A stretch of 64,000 bases of DNA from a virus (lineage: Duplodnaviria > Caudoviricetes), in the IMG/VR virus record IMGVR_UViG_3300048503_000032, positions 1-64,000 of that record. One strand, 5' to 3'. Below are positions 60,501 through 64,000 of this stretch, piece after piece. The translations under genes were made by a program, and so were the position numbers. The stretch's first letter is position 1. Each line of letters starts with the position of its first letter. The notes beneath the pieces were generated by a model. It saw nothing but the letters and a program-made list of their open reading frames with translations. It ran no database searches and was not told where the DNA came from.

Positions 60501-60628
60501 TGACCAGTCGAACGGCCGGGTTGAAGGAAGCAGCGGGTGTGAGCGATTCATTGCATGACAAGATTAAGAATCTATTTTCAGAGGCGGAAGATTCTGTTCG
60601 GCGAGAGGTAGTCGCATGCAGTCGGTAA
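57590..60628 (+). CDS. Multidomain protein: ParB-like + topoisomerase IB + Nudix + PI3/4-kinase/HipA-like domain
   Basis: IVDGNHK; VPPAWKDV..GKDAKGR.QRVY..RPG..YGATTL..FTGKKG..KDFRT..LGNTPAVALSSY; GTQESGEALQTTAVRETYEESG; GSNVGG..YVK..EVLA..ANWD..DNI..LDNG. Confidence 0.88.
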   Translation: MNLAHLSTISTNATSGLLSKTQGALARAIEAYSDDEDRDSSGKWTSGDDRRAQSVLKPQVEYEQVVKNYMEDIRQGKDVGAVLVSDKDHSHIVDGNHKTEAYLRLGKQPPRVYAVDRLKTLIQMGQENKTADEVADSIGEWLKSEDIKAYSEDEERDDHGKWSSGGSLKPAEEDRTQWPQHIQDLKVPPAWKDVHYSDDPKAALLATGKDAKGRDQRVYSKEFQDSQAGLKFERVEELGKQMGLIDQQLIADRKSDDDKTKEHADAALLVRTMGVRPGSETDTKAKVQAYGATTLEGRHVRVSTTGNVRLNFTGKKGVGINLPVEDKQVAAMLVSRKADAGNSGQIFPHVSNSSLLDYVHDNLDHGGFKSKDFRTYLGTSTAQGLVSSMKEPATPKDYVKAVRSVASAVAEKLGNTPAVALSSYIAPQVFSGWKMHAGVTAEAMELPQVYYGEVSDNQRDFRDVAGLFDSSDTDDGDDSDGSVEKMLGFDPAKMGIAASVLRRSTARERTQKKALFVKRECATLLAEFDEEQHPRDEHGKFTDGGGETTTDRTSWHFDDFHPEDKINGIPLAHMSHPDFEKYTNPDLKETPLKVGPGQHAAAGVIMIEPGNKVWIVTPDKYFGGYRNTFPKGTQESGEALQTTAVRETYEESGLVGKITGVLGDVDRTTSSTRYYIGERVGGSPAMAGEETYAVKLLDLNDPKTDERLQDVMGKTTKDADVLSMIREHLGIEQPAQPEAPATGKMTAADIMDKKIGGSQGSNVGGFYKGTDGVDRYVKLYNNPEQAHGEVLANTIYRDLNIPAPQSQVFSLPNGKEAFASDIVHGGKTLEQTGVTKENAREVLKGFAADVLTANWDTVGLTYDNILLKGGQAYRLDNGSAFLYRAQGGQKPDALLNKVTELKGFLSPTVNREYAKMAKVAGYTSADEIPGFRSQVKAIAALEKVAGGWGKYLDAKAPYLSANERSKIGDMLTSRTAGLKEAAGVSDSLHDKIKNLFSEAEDSVRREVVACSR

Positions 60629-63600
60629 TCGACAAGATCAACGCTTTACCTAACGCTGCCAAGCCTGACGGCATGTGGTCGACTCTGCGCCGCCGCAAAG
60701 AGAAGCAGTATGGGAAGACGCAGTGGAAGAAGAATCCGATCAAGCTGATACCGAAGCCGGCGGATGCTTTGGCGTTTAAGCAGTTGCCGATTCCTTTGCG
60801 TGATAAGCTGGTGAATACGGCTCCCGTCAAGAGCTTCGATCCTCGTAAGCTGGTCACCAATCAGCCGATGGTATCTCAGGCTGACTTGGCTCATTTCGCC
60901 GATCATGGCACAGACCCAGATCCGGTCATAATCCTGAAGTCGACAGACGGGTTGTATGTCCACAACGGGAACCATCGGTCTGCGCTGGCGATGATGCGGG
61001 GGCGCAAGGTGAAGGCGCGTTACATCGATCTGTCTCAGGTGCCTCAGTTGAAGGGGAAGAAGCCGGTACCTCAGGAGCGGGCTGTGGATGCTTATAAGAT
61101 GCGGGACAACGATGGGGTGTTTACCAGCGAGGAAGCGTTGGATAAAGAGGCAAGACGTGGTGCACAGCTCGTCCACACGGCGTCGTTGAGGGATTCGGCG
61201 GGGTCTGGTGCCACTGGATCTGCCCTGGGGCAACGTGCGGCTCTGTTGGCTTCTAGCATGGTGAATTTTGATGGGCTGGTGGGGGAGGTGTTTGATGCTG
61301 GTGGGCCGGGATCAGGAAGACACAAAGAAATTCCTGGTGAAGGATGGGTTACAAAAAGCGGTAAGTTCATACCTGTGAGTCACGAAGGAGCGCACGGAGA
61401 ACATTCAGACGTAGCAAAAGCTAACGGATTAGGGAATACTGTAGATAAGGCTTTTGCTAATGGGCATGTGAGAGTAGCCGAGCTGTTAGATAATGAGTGG
61501 GGGTTGAATATAGGGAAGACTACAAGCGAAGCCTGCGAACGTTTGCAGGATGTAGTTGATCGGTTACCCGATACGACGCGAGGAATTTACATTGATTATA
61601 GTTCACGAGGGGGTAATAAATCCGCGTCAGCTCATTTTACAGGTGGCAGTGCTAAGGTTAAGGCTCTGGACTGGATAGCCAAGGGAGCCAAGACTTCAGT
61701 GTTTTATAGCGCCGCGGGGGGTCATCCGTTTGATGGGGAGAAGGCGGAGGACGGTTATGGCATCGGCAACTGTAAGGAGTGCGGCAAGCCTTGGAAGAAT
61801 AAGGCACACTGGAGGATCGCGGCCGGCGGGCCTGGTAGCGGTCGTCATAAGGAGGTTGGAGGCGCGGGATGGGTTACAAAGGGCGGTAAGTTTATTCCGT
61901 TGGAATCTAAAGATGGCCATTTGTATTCTCATGTAGATGTCGCAAATAAAAACGGGCTAGGAAAGACTTATGAGGAGGCTTGGAAGAATGGCCATGTGAG
62001 GGTGTCGACAGCGATGGGTAATAAGCTGTTGGCGTTGGAGAGTGGCAAGAATACGGCGGAAGCTCGAGAGCGGTTGATAGACATAGTTCAGCGCTTACCA
62101 GACTCCAAGATTATTACGATAGAGCACTCGCAGGGTATGCCCGGAGTTCGTTCGGTCTATCGTACTTTTTATGATCCAAGTAGTAAGGAAGAGGCTTCTG
62201 ATTGGTTGGACAAGGGAGCCAAGACTTCAGTGTTTTATAGCGCCGCGGGGGGTCATCCGTTTGATGGGGAGAAGGCGGAGGACGGTTATGGCATCGGCAA
62301 CTGTAAGGAGTGCGGCAAGCCTTGGAAGAATAAGGCACACTGGAGGATCGCGGCTGGCGGCCCAGGGTCTGGTCGTCATCCGGGTGGTGGAGTAGTAAGG
62401 CAGGGCAAGATTGTGAAGTGGGGATTGACTCCGAAGAATGAGAAGATTTTTGCAAAGTATGGACTGAAGGTCAAGCTGGTAGACGCAAAGCAGCTCCAGC
62501 CGTCAGAGCATAGTAGTTGGAGACAGGCACTGTTTACTTTCATGAAGTCTCCAAGAGACCGTAAGTATCTTGACGGCTTGACTGATGGGATGCGCGCCGG
62601 GAAGTTGGTATATCCGCTTGAGGTGGAGAAGAATAAGTCGGGCGGCTATGACGTGATGGACGGCCATAATCGGTATGTGGCAGCTACAGAAGCAGGGGAG
62701 ACAAAGATTGCTGTGTTCGAGAGTCCAGTAGAAGCAAAGCAAGACAAGTTTATGGAAGAGAATTTAGATTTGCAGAAGGTAGTGAAGGCGTCGGCCATTT
62801 CAGCTGGAGGCCCAGGCTCGGGCTGGACTACGGAGAACGGCCATGTCTCGAATCTGACTCCGCAGGACAAGGGTCAGAAGCTCCAGAAGATGGGTTTCTT
62901 TCATACGGATCAGGGTAACTACGGCGTCGGTAAGGAAGTATGGCAGCACAAGGACACCGGCACTCAGGTGCATGTGTCGAAGTACAACGCGCCCAACCAG
63001 CCGAACCTGAGAAAGTTCGAGGTCTATAAGTCGAACGGCGACAAGATTTTCAATGGGCATCAGTTCAGCAAGGCGGTTGAGAAGATGCAGAACACTCCGA
63101 TGCAGAAGTCGGAGATGAAGCCTGACACTGGGCCGAAGACTAGCCTGCCTAGCGGAGTGAAGCAGTATGATCCTACTGTGAAGCCGTCGGCGCTTGAGCA
63201 GTTGAATGTACCGAAGGGTGGTGTGAAGACGACAGAGCCATCGATTCCAGCGTCTGAGAAGAATGCTGTGTTGCAGGATGCTGGCTTCCATGTCGCATAT
63301 ACGAGTAAGTTGGTAGAGACTGGACAGCCGACAGATGTTTGGGTTCATTCTACGACTCAGGATGCGGTGCATGTGATTGCGACCGATCCTACTCACAGCA
63401 GTTGGAAATATATACCGGCGAACGGATCGCCATCGACGGGCAAGATGGCTGACGACTTGAAGCAGGCCATTGCCAATGGAGGCAAGCCAGCAGCAGTTGA
63501 TAAGCCGACATCGTCTACGAAGACATCGACTCCCGCAGCACCGAAGACGCCGGATATCATTCCGGTGACAAAGGAATGGTGGGACAAGCTGGACAAGGCT

Positions 63601-64000
63601 GCATCGGATAACTGGGTCAAGGGCGGATCGTCAAAAATGACTGGGTACTCGGATAAAGATAAGCCGAATGACTATCATAAAGATGGTACGGGCTGGTATG
63701 GCAAAGTAGCATCTGCGATGGGGGTTCCGTTTAGTTCAGTAAAAGATGCAGCACACAGGATTGATAGTTTGCAGTCGTCTGGTAAGACGGCGGAGGGCGG
63801 TAACAAGATTGGAGCTTGGAGTCAGTCGGTGGTCAATAATGTAGGACAGGCTGGCAGTGTTCATCTTGGCACGGCGATTGAGTATGCGCATGCGCAGCAG
63901 TGGATCAAAGAGAATGGGATGGCCAACAGCGGTAATATGTCTCGCGGGTACTCGGGAACTGGGAAGACGATAGATAAGGCTGTTGGTTATGTGAAGTCGC
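60616..64000 (+). CDS. Very large modular protein (>1128 aa, open at window end; absent from the ORF track): two ParB-like domains, duplicated GWVT..H..GHVRV domain plus Zn finger, four AGGPGSG linkers
   Basis: ATG 60616 with GAGG SD; no stop seen in frame 1 to the end; VHNGNHR (~60960) and VMDGHNR (~62655). Confidence 0.85.
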   Translation, partial: MQSVIDKINALPNAAKPDGMWSTLRRRKEKQYGKTQWKKNPIKLIPKPADALAFKQLPIPLRDKLVNTAPVKSFDPRKLVTNQPMVSQADLAHFADHGTDPDPVIILKSTDGLYVHNGNHRSALAMMRGRKVKARYIDLSQVPQLKGKKPVPQERAVDAYKMRDNDGVFTSEEALDKEARRGAQLVHTASLRDSAGSGATGSALGQRAALLASSMVNFDGLVGEVFDAGGPGSGRHKEIPGEGWVTKSGKFIPVSHEGAHGEHSDVAKANGLGNTVDKAFANGHVRVAELLDNEWGLNIGKTTSEACERLQDVVDRLPDTTRGIYIDYSSRGGNKSASAHFTGGSAKVKALDWIAKGAKTSVFYSAAGGHPFDGEKAEDGYGIGNCKECGKPWKNKAHWRIAAGGPGSGRHKEVGGAGWVTKGGKFIPLESKDGHLYSHVDVANKNGLGKTYEEAWKNGHVRVSTAMGNKLLALESGKNTAEARERLIDIVQRLPDSKIITIEHSQGMPGVRSVYRTFYDPSSKEEASDWLDKGAKTSVFYSAAGGHPFDGEKAEDGYGIGNCKECGKPWKNKAHWRIAAGGPGSGRHPGGGVVRQGKIVKWGLTPKNEKIFAKYGLKVKLVDAKQLQPSEHSSWRQALFTFMKSPRDRKYLDGLTDGMRAGKLVYPLEVEKNKSGGYDVMDGHNRYVAATEAGETKIAVFESPVEAKQDKFMEENLDLQKVVKASAISAGGPGSGWTTENGHVSNLTPQDKGQKLQKMGFFHTDQGNYGVGKEVWQHKDTGTQVHVSKYNAPNQPNLRKFEVYKSNGDKIFNGHQFSKAVEKMQNTPMQKSEMKPDTGPKTSLPSGVKQYDPTVKPSALEQLNVPKGGVKTTEPSIPASEKNAVLQDAGFHVAYTSKLVETGQPTDVWVHSTTQDAVHVIATDPTHSSWKYIPANGSPSTGKMADDLKQAIANGGKPAAVDKPTSSTKTSTPAAPKTPDIIPVTKEWWDKLDKAASDNWVKGGSSKMTGYSDKDKPNDYHKDGTGWYGKVASAMGVPFSSVKDAAHRIDSLQSSGKTAEGGNKIGAWSQSVVNNVGQAGSVHLGTAIEYAHAQQWIKENGMANSGNMSRGYSGTGKTIDKAVGYVKS
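61681..62354 (+). repeat. 143-bp perfect direct repeat (61681-61823 and 62212-62354) inside ORF 60616
   Basis: Base-by-base identical on reading. Confidence 0.92.

What the first reader, a model, noticed from the sequence alone, without database searches (positions are those of the whole stretch)
60616..64000. Unlisted giant ORF built from cassettes joined by AGGPGSG linkers
Seen: open from 60616 to the window end. ParB-like domain, VDA|YKMRDNDGVFT (variant of the RD..G.F tag), FDA|GGPGSGRH (61291) + GWVT domain + Zn finger, IAA|GGPGSGRH (61816) + paralogous domain + Zn finger, IAA|GGPGSGRH (62347) + ParB-like domain, ISA|GGPGSGW (62797) + unknown domains. The same LQA|GGPGSGRH begins the mature part of small ORF 30402. 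Inference: second member of the same cargo system with an alternative tag; together these suggest a modular, protease-processed delivery platform.
Basis: partly seen in the sequence, partly recalled or inferred. Interest (0 to 1): 0.85.

Follow-up and report, generated by a model that had tools for sequence, protein, structure and literature searches.

The report
Tagged multi-enzyme cargo protein of a phage
This gene encodes a 1464-residue string of enzyme-like modules in the head-gene cluster of an uncultured phage. Each module starts with a short, strictly conserved peptide tag that follows a hydrophobic-x-Ala triplet, which looks like a cutting site for the phage's own herpesvirus-type head protease, though no cut has been shown.

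Summary
The ORF starts at 60616, runs past the window to 65010 (1464 aa), and carries four x-A-GGPGSG junctions. Two more lie in small ORFs of the same 107-kb phage genome (chance expectation 0.02).

It is a polyvalent protein in the sense of Iyer et al. 2017, with a C-terminal InPase domain (PF18823, E 3e-35), and it sits between the capsid genes and the head-tail adaptor.

New evidence:
- In 62 unique contexts from relatives, the residue three before the tag is always L/I/V/M/F and the residue just before it is Ala in 59.
- Tags prefix modules and are often 11-33 aa from an N-terminus behind an "MNL..." leader.
- A second tag (Y-S-x-D-E-x-R-D-x-x-G-R-W) is interchangeable with GGPGSG. It follows Ala only in this clade and Lys/Arg in other phage lineages.
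- The gene after the portal encodes an assemblin-fold protease fused to a scaffold.
- The putative capsid protein and the end of the protease domain carry the same hydrophobic-x-Ala triplet at conserved boundaries.

Cleavage is therefore plausible (about 55%) but unproven.

The scan found the same GGPGSG motif earlier on another phage genome (e1-5350764). No paper in the searchable library mentions these tags.

The parts
60616..64000 (+). Polyvalent protein gene. The window holds aa 1-1128; the ORF continues to 65010 of the same contig (1464 aa). The C-terminal InPase domain is aa 1320-1443, nt 64573-64944.
   Evidence: Pfam InPase PF18823 E 3.1e-35. PHROG hits to minor head protein, virion structural protein and DarB-like families. 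50 homologues among 1.84 billion representatives.
60616..61083 (+). N-terminal mobile domain (aa 1-156) with an NGNHR motif; ParB/Srx-like by motif only.
   Evidence: About 35 homologues carry it at many different positions in large proteins. Invariant G118, R121, A125. No Pfam or PDB sequence hit. hhalign to the second ParB-like domain is weak.
61084..61122 (+). Short type B tag: V-D-A | Y-K-M-R-D-N-D-G-V-F.
   Evidence: The same element (h-x-A-Y-E-M-R-D-N-N-G-V-F) is present in homologues P0005, P0006 and P0022.
61291..61323 (+). Type A tag 1: F-D-A | GGPGSGRH.
   Evidence: HMMER matches of homologues begin at query residues 226-228.
61324..61824 (+). Cassette 1: an alpha/beta domain (GWVT...GHVRV) plus a C-x-x-C/His tail ending HWRIAA.
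   Evidence: AlphaFold2 on alignment A2 gives pLDDT above 90 for the core (cassette residues 10-128), below 50 for the first five tag residues, and low values for the tail. No convincing PDB fold match: Foldseek E at least 0.27, VIA best Z 5.2. The core is repeated 2-3 times in P0032, P0037 and P0043.
61816..61848 (+). Type A tag 2: I-A-A | GGPGSGRH.
61849..62355 (+). Cassette 2, a paralogue of cassette 1. Its last 143 nt are identical to those of cassette 1.
   Evidence: Pairwise alignment shows a 48-aa identical tail. DNA identity stops at the Ala codon before GGPGSG, and 5 synonymous differences then follow within the six tag codons.
62347..62379 (+). Type A tag 3: I-A-A | GGPGSGRH.
62380..62796 (+). 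ParB/Srx-like domain (DGHNRY).
   Evidence: ParB_N E 6e-4 on the isolated domain. phrog_1033 ParB-like E 2.8e-8. TIGR00180 E 7e-4. All Pfam and NCBIfam scores are below the curated cut-offs.
62797..62829 (+). Type A tag 4: I-S-A | GGPGSGWT.
   Evidence: The GGPGSGWT(T/A)E variant recurs in P0006, P0009, P0022, P0023, P0034 and P0038.
62830..64000 (+). Untagged region of small unknown domains. It continues to aa 1319.
   Evidence: No family hits except phrog_33415 at aa 887-979. Homologue P0004 is 88% identical over aa 759-1124.
30402..30623 (+). 73-aa ORF with leader MNLGQRIVLQA followed by GGPGSGRH (tag at 30426-30458).
   Evidence: It has an ATGA overlap with the upstream ORF and an AAGGAG site upstream. 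The identical sequence occurs in viral contig L019.
54087..55577 (+). Prohead protease (aa about 27-176, nt 54165-54614) fused to a Ser-rich linker and a coiled-coil scaffold.
   Evidence: AlphaFold2 model pLDDT 83. Best Foldseek hits are HCMV protease 1nkk (E 1.8e-4), T4 gp21 5jbl, and HSV, EBV and KSHV proteases. H87 and S132 are invariant and H57 nearly so. A conserved [IL]-A-A (own A173-I-A-A176) ends the fold, followed by a variable linker.
55614..56672 (+). Putative major capsid protein (352 aa), with I34-S35-A36 (nt 55713-55721) at the start of the conserved part.
   Evidence: In 22 homologues a variable N-terminus of 11-36 aa is followed by [ILVFM]-x-A-A-A-D-[YF]; the triplet is present in 23 of 23 rows. 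The capsid identity rests on synteny and conservation only, with no family or PDB sequence hit.
57590..60628 (+). Neighbouring polyvalent protein (TopoIB + NUDIX + C-terminal region) with three type B tags at 57674-57721, 58028-58075 and 59165-59212.
   Evidence: Pfam Topoisom_I E 2.5e-24 and NUDIX E 3e-11. Tags. The GTG start at 57590 gives an 'MNL' leader like the other tagged proteins.
50896..54054 (+). Portal protein, which sets the head-module context.
   Evidence: phrog_2662 and phrog_12 portal, E 1e-18.

Best explanation
ORF 60616-65010 is a virion-associated polyvalent protein of an uncultured, roughly 107-kb tailed phage. It strings together effector-type modules: an N-terminal NGNHR domain, two copies of an unknown alpha/beta domain with a Cys/His tail, a ParB/Srx-like domain, several small unknown domains and an InPase domain.

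Each of the first five junctions carries a conserved prefix tag. Four are GGPGSG-R-H/W-T and one is Y-K-M-R-D-x-x-G-V-F. Each tag directly follows a hydrophobic-x-Ala triplet.

The most likely mechanism has three steps:
1. The protein is taken into the procapsid.
2. The phage's assemblin-fold prohead protease (54087-55577) cuts after the Ala. It does the same at the N-terminus of the putative capsid protein and at the end of its own catalytic domain.
3. The released modules, each now starting with its tag, stay in the head and enter the host with the DNA.

The tag itself (the residues after the cut) probably has a second role, such as docking inside the capsid or during ejection, because it is conserved across phage lineages whose upstream residue differs.

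Shown here: the architecture, the motif constraints, the protease fold and the co-occurrence. Inferred: packaging, cleavage, the exact scissile bond and delivery.
For: 1. Identity. InPase PF18823 scores E 3e-35, PHROG hits are to minor head, virion and DarB-like families, and the gene lies between portal/protease-scaffold/putative capsid and the head-tail adaptor.

2. Motif constraint. In 62 unique GGPGSG contexts the residue three before the tag is L21/I19/V16/M4/F2, and the residue just before it is Ala in 59, otherwise G, C or S.

3. Tags prefix modules. HMMER matches start at the tags. 14 of 29 tagged homologues have the first tag 11-33 aa from the N-terminus, behind M-N-L-type leaders. 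No tag lies within 104 aa of a C-terminus, and spacing is mostly 90-500 aa. The tag residues are disordered in the model.

4. Recombination boundary. 143 nt of identity between the two cassettes stops exactly at the Ala/GGPGSG border.

5. Interchangeable tags. The same upstream element (...KAHWRIAA) is followed by GGPGSG here and by a type B tag in P0012.

6. Lineage-specific upstream residue. Type B tags follow Ala in the four contigs that have this protease family, and Lys (39) or Arg (9) elsewhere. Within-contig agreement is 0.73 against 0.39 in shuffles, with 0 of 5000 shuffles reaching the observed value. Five K/R contigs lack this protease family, and one of them has an S78 protease.

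7. Protease. The fold is assemblin-like, fused to a scaffold. Herpesvirus assemblins cut YLQA|T and VQA|S (PMC4498786).

8. Same triplet elsewhere. It sits at the conserved boundary of the putative capsid protein (23 of 23 rows) and at the end of the protease fold.

9. Co-occurrence. 7 of the motif-bearing viral contigs are among the 22 contigs that carry the protease family. All three further near-complete genomes of the clade have 3 GGPGSG sites each, against 0 for the reversed control pattern.

10. No alternative protease or carrier. The genome has no MPTase-PolyVal, C39, S78, ClpP or MuF match.
Against: - No experimental evidence of cleavage, packaging or ejection exists for this phage or any relative I could find.
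- Eight strongly conserved residues after the proposed cut are more than a protease site needs, so the motif could work uncut.
- A cut at A|Y or A|F in type B tags would expose N-terminal Tyr or Phe, which are destabilising in bacteria (N-end rule, general knowledge). This argues either for another scissile bond or for short-lived products.
- 2 of 9 tags in relatives G001-G003 have Phe before GGPGSG.
- Hydrophobic-x-Ala is a common tripeptide, and the scaffold is Ala-rich, so matches there are weak evidence.
- Within-contig agreement of the upstream residue could partly reflect common descent of duplicated cassettes, and related contigs inflate the shuffle test.
- The capsid identity of the 352-aa protein is inferred only.
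- 730 residues after the fourth tag carry no tag.
Confidence: 0.55

Rival explanations
1. The tags are uncleaved inter-domain and N-terminal elements: flexible glycine-rich hinges or docking peptides that bind the scaffold, the capsid interior, the portal or DNA. The hydrophobic-x-Ala triplet is simply part of that structural motif. The protein acts as one chain.
For: Conservation is very strong on the tag side (GGPGSG invariant, R43/62, H41/62) and holds across lineages for type B, which suggests a binding function. Phage N4 vRNAP is packaged unprocessed (PMC5512222). The tag is disordered in the model.
Against: A pure linker does not explain tags 11-33 aa from N-termini of single-domain proteins. 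It does not explain the strict aliphatic/Ala pattern shared by two unrelated tags, the putative capsid protein and the end of the protease domain. It does not explain why the upstream residue changes with lineage while the tag stays the same.
Confidence: 0.27
2. The junctions are cut, but by another enzyme. Candidates are a host protease of the Prp type (which trims ribosomal protein L27 and staphylococcal phage 80-alpha capsid and scaffold proteins after ...F-A), a signal-peptidase-like enzyme, or host proteases acting after injection.
For: The leaders start M-N-L and end in Ala, loosely like the N-L-Q-F-F-A motif of Prp substrates (my own knowledge, not tested). A small residue just before the cut and an aliphatic one three before resemble the signal peptidase -3/-1 rule.
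Against: The phage encodes its own assemblin-fold protease, whose relatives cut after [VLI]-x-A. The residue two before the cut is variable, not Phe. The leaders have no hydrophobic core and most sites are internal. The motif co-occurs with the phage protease family. The host is unknown, so a host Prp could not be tested.
Confidence: 0.1
3. The repeats are a by-product of recent cassette duplication or chance, with no function of their own. Alternatively GGPGSG is a degenerate adenylate-kinase-type P-loop.
For: Cassettes 1 and 2 are paralogous and share a 143-nt identical block. GGPGSGK(G/T) is the adenylate-kinase P-loop, and the literature hits for the string are kinases.
Against: DNA identity stops before the tag, and the tag codons differ at synonymous sites. 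The tag occurs in unrelated proteins (InPase, NUDIX, Zeta-toxin kinase and small ORFs) in about 30 contigs. Chance expectation is 0.02. The Walker Lys-Ser/Thr is replaced by R-H, W-T or C-H, and the downstream domains are unrelated to each other.
Confidence: 0.03

Closest known systems
Polyvalent proteins of phages and conjugative elements (Iyer, Burroughs, Anand, de Souza, Aravind 2017, PMC5512222)
   Same: Many effector-type domains sit in one polypeptide. It includes the hallmark phage-type InPase domain and ParB-like domains, it is encoded among virion genes, and it is predicted to be packaged, processed into units and delivered with the DNA.
   Different: There is no embedded zincin-like MPTase (or C39, S78, ClpP) and no MuF domain in the genome. 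Processing would fall to the prohead protease. That paper has no occurrence of 'linker', 'glycine' or 'low-complexity' and, in the passages shown, no junction motif.
T4 internal proteins and Alt with the N-terminal capsid targeting sequence, cut by prohead protease gp21 at L/I-x-E; phiKZ/SPN3US ejection proteins cut at S/A/G-x-E (PMC9026906, PMC9958956, PMC5694885, PMC10052503; these came up in the search and were not opened, so the consensus sites are from my own knowledge)
   Same: A short N-terminal leader of about 10-30 aa ends in an aliphatic-x-small/acidic consensus. The protease has the assemblin fold (T4 gp21 is among the fold hits). The cargo is encoded near the head genes.
   Different: The residue before the cut is Ala, not Glu. 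Sites are also internal, between modules of a polyprotein. The residues after the cut form a strictly conserved tag, which T4 sites lack. Nothing has been tested experimentally.
Herpesvirus assemblin (pUL26-type protease-scaffold fusion, with R-site and M-site)
   Same: The gene encodes a protease domain fused upstream of a scaffold. The fold match is to HCMV, HSV, EBV and KSHV proteases. The cleavage consensus [V/L]-Q-A|S/T (YLQA|T, VQA|S in PMC4498786) matches the L-Q-A, I-Q-A, I-A-A and I-S-A triplets here. A conserved [IL]-A-A lies at the end of the protease fold, like an R-site.
   Different: Sequence identity is only 9-17%. The catalytic triad is inferred from invariant H57, H87 and S132 only. 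No conserved M-site-like Ala triplet was found near the scaffold C-terminus.
Encapsulin cargo-loading peptides
   Same: Short conserved peptides act as portable address labels that load unrelated cargo enzymes into an HK97-fold shell (general knowledge).
   Different: Encapsulin peptides are usually C-terminal, have a different sequence, and are not linked to proteolysis. Binding of the present tags to any shell protein was not tested.

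Membership tests
Polyvalent proteins (Iyer et al. 2017) | Two or more distinct effector-type globular domains in one polypeptide | tested here: met
   InPase, a ParB-like domain, the NGNHR domain, two cassettes and further domains.
Polyvalent proteins (Iyer et al. 2017) | Carries a domain typical of phage-type polyvalent proteins (InPase lacking the beta-hairpin insert, DdrB-ParB and others) | tested here: met
   PF18823 InPase E 3.1e-35, 121 bits against a cut-off of 26.8. 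The DdrB-type ParB subfamily was not specifically tested.
Polyvalent proteins (Iyer et al. 2017) | Encoded by a phage or mobile element among virion or late genes | tested here: met
   The record is a virus. The gene order is portal, protease-scaffold, putative capsid, TopoIB-Nudix protein, this ORF, head-tail adaptor, tape measure.
Polyvalent proteins (Iyer et al. 2017) | Embedded processing peptidase (MPTase in about 36% of members; not obligatory) | tested here: not met
   PF18818 has no match in the 91%-complete genome, while the control genomes ring.
Polyvalent proteins (Iyer et al. 2017) | Packaged in the virion and delivered to the host | not testable with these tools
   Needs virion proteomics or infection assays.
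Prohead-protease-processed capsid cargo (T4 CTS type) | Phage encodes an assemblin-fold prohead protease | tested here: met
   Model pLDDT 83. Foldseek hits HCMV protease at E 1.8e-4 and T4 gp21 at E 2e-4.
Prohead-protease-processed capsid cargo (T4 CTS type) | Cargo sites share the consensus used on the capsid and scaffold proteins of the same phage | tested here: inconclusive
   The same [ILVMF]-x-A lies at the conserved boundary of the putative capsid protein (23 of 23 rows) and at the end of the protease domain. Real cleavage sites are unknown, and the capsid identity is inferred.
Prohead-protease-processed capsid cargo (T4 CTS type) | Short N-terminal targeting leader removed on maturation | tested here: inconclusive
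   Leaders of 11-33 aa (M-N-L...h-x-A) precede the first tag in 14 of 29 tagged homologues and in three proteins of this genome. Removal is not shown.
Prohead-protease-processed capsid cargo (T4 CTS type) | Demonstrated cleavage at the motif | not testable with these tools
   Needs mass spectrometry or an in vitro assay.
P-loop NTPase (adenylate-kinase-type GGPGSGKGT) | Walker A G-x4-G-K-[ST] followed by a conserved NTPase fold | tested here: not met
   The residues after GGPGSG are R-H, W-T or C-H. The downstream domains are unrelated to each other, and the cassette model has no NTPase match.
Double-glycine leader / C39 peptidase system | C39 peptidase present; leader with a hydrophobic residue at -4, -7 and -12 relative to the cut after GG | tested here: not met
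   No PF03412 match in the genome. The hydrophobic positions fall at -5 and -7 relative to GG, and Pro would follow the cut.

The most novel reading that the evidence does not exclude
GGPGSG-R-H, Y-S-x-D-E-x-R-D-x-x-G-R-W and Y-G-T-S-E-G-x-x-K-A-W-D-T-R-G-R-G are portable address labels for capsid cargo, used by several unrelated lineages of tailed phages. Each lineage places its own protease's preferred residue (Ala here, Lys or Arg elsewhere) directly in front of the label, so that cutting exposes the label at a new N-terminus. The label then directs retention in the head or ordered ejection. If so, injected phage proteins could be recognised from sequence alone, and foreign proteins could be loaded into phage heads by design.
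Probability: 0.3. Interest if true: 0.85.

Novelty: new variant of a known kind. Interest (0 to 1): 0.66.

Why it matters
Phage proteins that travel with the DNA (anti-defence enzymes, host-takeover factors) are hard to recognise. If a short conserved tag together with a lineage-matched protease site marks them, hundreds of unknown proteins in metagenomic phages could be flagged as injected cargo.

It would also extend the polyvalent-protein model, in which an embedded metallopeptidase does the processing, to processing by the head-maturation protease. It would link phage and herpesvirus assemblins through a shared [VLI]-x-Ala specificity. Finally, the tags could be tried as handles for loading proteins into phage capsids.

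The cassette domains themselves (GWVT...GHVRV plus a Cys/His tail) have no known fold relative and are candidates for new effector activities.

Tried and rejected
Tools and searches that gave nothing:
- Word-indexed homologue search for cassette 1 found only a truncated copy of the same protein ('near') and nothing ('shorter').
- The ESM Atlas gave no hit for the cassette and only a weak ParB_N lead (21% of one cluster, score 0.88) for the N-terminal domain.
- Fold search of the cassette gave Foldseek E at least 0.27 and VIA best Z 5.2 (gelsolin-like, Stay-Green), below the background level for such searches. No fold is assigned.
- Pfam, PHROGs, NCBIfam and a PDB sequence profile gave no family for the 352-aa putative capsid protein. 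Pfam and NCBIfam gave no peptidase family for the protease domain; only the fold search identified it.
- Tunturiibacter phage Tunturi_5 was the only hit among 50,697 GenBank phages, at 34% identity over 7% of the query.
- Literature strings GGPGSG, GGPGSGRH, PRDERGR and similar found no phage paper. The MuF toxin paper has no mention of junction motifs.
- The protease family was not found in five other motif-bearing contigs. Four of these are under 50% complete, so this says nothing.

Ideas considered and rejected:
- P-loop NTPase.
- Double-glycine/C39 leader.
- Signal peptide.
- 2A-like ribosome skipping (different motif, and bacterial ribosomes).
- An M-site-like Ala triplet near the scaffold C-terminus, which is not conserved.

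Full report
**What is there.** The window is the first 64 kb of a 106,772-bp virus record that is 91% complete and 54% G+C. The frame opening at ATG 60616 has an AGAGG ribosome-binding site and overlaps the stop of the upstream gene by 13 nt. It ends at 65010, giving 1464 residues. The coding pattern for GGPGSG occurs five times in the window against 0.02 expected, with different codons in each copy. A six-frame scan of the whole genome finds six in-frame copies:
- four in this ORF, at aa 229, 404, 581 and 731;
- one 11 residues into a 73-aa ORF at 30402;
- one in a 192-aa ORF at 66398.

All six follow a hydrophobic-x-Ala triplet: FDA, IAA, IAA, ISA, LQA, VDA.

**What the protein is.** The C-terminus (aa 1320-1443) matches Pfam InPase PF18823 at E 3e-35. 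This domain was defined from phage polyvalent proteins (PMC5512222). PHROG hits for the same region are to minor head, virion structural and DarB-like anti-restriction families.
- Residues 589-727 are ParB/Srx-like with weak scores.
- The N-terminal 156 residues form a mobile domain with an invariant G-N-H-R motif. It appears at very different positions in about 35 large homologues. Its ParB relationship stays a lead only.
- The two cassettes are paralogues. Their core folds confidently (pLDDT above 90) into an alpha/beta domain with no convincing relative in the PDB.
- The Cys/His tail is modelled poorly.

The gene order runs as follows:
- portal (50896-54054);
- a 496-aa protein;
- a 352-aa highly conserved protein;
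- a TopoIB + NUDIX protein;
- this ORF;
- head-tail adaptor;
- tail genes, including a 1628-aa tape-measure-like protein.

Only 50 proteins among 1.84 billion representatives match residues 1-1128, so the lineage is rare.

**The junction motif is a conserved prefix tag.** I collected GPGSG contexts from three sources: the homologues, this genome, and loci found by a DNA pattern scan of IMG/VR. This gave 62 unique instances:
- three residues before the tag: L21, I19, V16, M4, F2;
- one residue before the tag: Ala in 59, otherwise G, C or S;
- GGPGSG itself: invariant;
- then R43/W9/C7, followed by H41/T10.

The viral-contig loci, but not the homologue set, were selected with Ala fixed.

Tags sit at the N-terminal side of modules:
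- HMMER matches to the query start at residues 226-228, 406-412, 578 and 724-727.
- 14 of 29 tagged homologues have the first tag 11-33 residues from the N-terminus. No tag lies within 104 residues of a C-terminus. Spacing is mostly 90-500 residues.
- The leaders resemble each other: MNLGQRIVLQA, MNLLQTLDCYGPILA, MNLEMTIAIHA, MNLQTTISIFA.
- The first five tag residues have pLDDT below 50.
- The two cassettes share 143 identical nucleotides. Identity stops exactly at the Ala codon, after which the tag codons differ at five synonymous positions. The tag therefore belongs with the downstream module, and the junction is a shuffling boundary.

The tagged proteins in other contigs carry unrelated domains, including InPase, NUDIX and a Zeta-toxin-type kinase.

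**A second and a third tag.** Homologues and the neighbouring TopoIB-Nudix gene carry [h]-x-A-[YF]-[SN]-x-[DE]-[EQ]-x-R-[DN]-x-x-G-[KRE]-[WF]. This ORF has a short form, VDA|YKMRDNDGVF. The same upstream element...KAHWRIAA, is followed by GGPGSG here and by this second tag in P0012, so the two are interchangeable. A third form, h-x-A-YGTSEG-x-x-KAWDTRGRG, appears in P0032 and P0037.

**The residue before the tag depends on the lineage.** A scan of IMG/VR for Y-S-x-D-E-x-R-D-x-x-G-R-W, with nothing fixed upstream, found 29 loci.
- In the contigs that belong to this phage's clade the preceding residue is Ala.
- In the others it is Lys (39) or Arg (9), consistently within a contig.
- The fraction of same-residue pairs is 0.73 against 0.39 in shuffles, and 0 of 5000 shuffles reached it. 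Related contigs inflate this figure.
- Five Lys/Arg contigs have no relative of this phage's protease. One has a Peptidase_S78.

This is what one expects if the upstream residues are read by a lineage-specific protease while the tag has its own, shared function. Common descent of duplicated cassettes is an alternative that I cannot exclude.

**The protease.** The first 190 residues of the 496-aa protein have more than 159 homologues, many on contigs of 100-135 kb. An AlphaFold2 model (pLDDT 83) matches HCMV protease, T4 gp21 and other herpesvirus proteases. H87 and S132 (in G-M-S-M-E) are invariant and H57 nearly so. The rest of the protein is Ser/Asp-rich and coiled-coil, with a conserved C-terminal G-L-M-E-x-G-x-V-x-R, like a scaffold. 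Herpesvirus assemblins are likewise fused to the scaffold and cut at YLQA|T and VQA|S (PMC4498786).

The genome has no MPTase-PolyVal, C39, S78, ClpP or MuF match. This is therefore the only protease recognised, and no MuF-type head anchor is present.

**The same triplet at other maturation-type boundaries.**
- In 22 homologues of the 352-aa protein, a variable N-terminus of 11-36 residues is followed by [ILVFM]-x-A-A-A-D-[YF]-x-x-P-G-A-I-E. The triplet is present in all 23 rows, and here it is I34-S35-A36.
- The protease fold ends in a conserved [IL]-A-A (own A-I-A-A176), followed by a variable linker.
- Where the N-terminal domain of this ORF lies inside larger homologues, a hydrophobic-x-Ala triplet without a tag precedes it in most cases: VRA|A, IKA|A, IEA|S, IYA|A, IHA|A. 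The sample is small.

**Co-occurrence.** Of the contigs found through the GGPGSG pattern, seven are among the 22 viral contigs that encode the protease family. Three further genomes of that family, 82-100% complete, each have three GGPGSG sites against none for the reversed control pattern. Two fragments have none. In those genomes the tags are in proteins of 140-365 aa, mostly behind MNL leaders. Two of the nine have Phe instead of Ala before the tag.

**Reading.** The most economical explanation is a capsid-cargo system. Polyvalent and small proteins are taken into the procapsid and cut after hydrophobic-x-Ala by the assemblin-like protease. The modules, each starting with a tag, are kept in the head and ejected. 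I put this at about 0.55.
- The main rival (0.27) is that the tags work uncut, as docking or hinge elements.
- Cutting by another protease is possible (0.1).
- Chance, duplication artefact or a P-loop are excluded for practical purposes.

Points against cleavage exactly at A|Y are the destabilising N-terminal Tyr or Phe it would create, and the unusually long conserved stretch after the cut.

**Comparison and novelty.** The protein is a member of the polyvalent proteins (membership features met, except the optional embedded peptidase). The proposed handling resembles two known systems: T4 internal proteins with the capsid targeting sequence, and herpesvirus assemblin sites. What appears undescribed is the set of conserved prefix tags, their interchangeability, and the lineage-matched residue in front of them. 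No paper in the searchable library contains these strings, and the polyvalent-protein paper has no occurrence of 'linker', 'glycine' or 'low-complexity'.

The scan itself had already noted the same V-x-A-GGPGSG motif on another phage of about 108 kb and reached a similar, equally unproven, reading (e1-5350764). This report adds:
- the protease fold;
- the boundaries in the putative capsid protein and the protease;
- the second and third tags;
- the Ala against Lys/Arg contrast.

Noticed in passing
window 50896-54054 (portal), aa about 86-478: The portal ORF seems to carry an intein. The insert starts C-L-D-D-Q-T-E-I-L-T and ends ...H-W-T-G-N-S, with LAGLIDADG-like blocks inside. The portal PHROG match only begins at aa 485, and the odd 'thymidylate synthase' PHROG hit at aa 85-163 is probably an intein match.
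   Followed up: partly
window 30719-31033: The ORF after the tagged 73-aa gene starts with almost the same leader (MNLGQRIILG... against MNLGQRIVLQA) but has no GGPGSG tag. It may be a paralogue or a second cargo with another site.
   Followed up: no
contig 66398-66976 (L002:6398-6976), outside the window: This 192-aa ORF lies between the head-tail adaptor and the tail genes. It reads: leader MNLSNAMALRSEGRQIQA|GAM..., a small domain, VDA|GGPGSGRH, then a second similar small domain. The same small-domain type seems to follow tag 4 of the large ORF.
   Followed up: partly
L052-L080 (viral contigs): Many unrelated phage contigs carry 2-6 copies per protein of K/R-Y-[SN]-x-D-[EQ]-x-R-D-x-x-G-R-[WF]-T-x-G-G at domain-sized spacing. 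One example is six copies in a protein of at least 2262 aa in L069. This looks like a widespread junction tag that I could not find described.
   Followed up: partly
L034/L035 3613-9875: In a 117-kb relative, four consecutive ORFs just upstream of the protease gene (224, 470, 368 and 828 aa) each carry h-x-A/G-GGPGSG-C-H-G-x-N-C-G-R-P. This is a Cys-containing variant of the tag that may bind metal.
   Followed up: no
window 57503-60628: The upstream TopoIB-NUDIX gene most likely starts at GTG 57590, not TTG 57503. That start gives an M-N-L leader of 31 aa ending A-I-E-A before its first tag, like the other tagged proteins.
   Followed up: partly
window 61681-61823 and 62212-62354: A perfect 143-nt direct repeat inside the ORF covers the Cys/His tails of the two cassettes. 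It could promote deletion or duplication of a cassette by recombination.
   Followed up: partly
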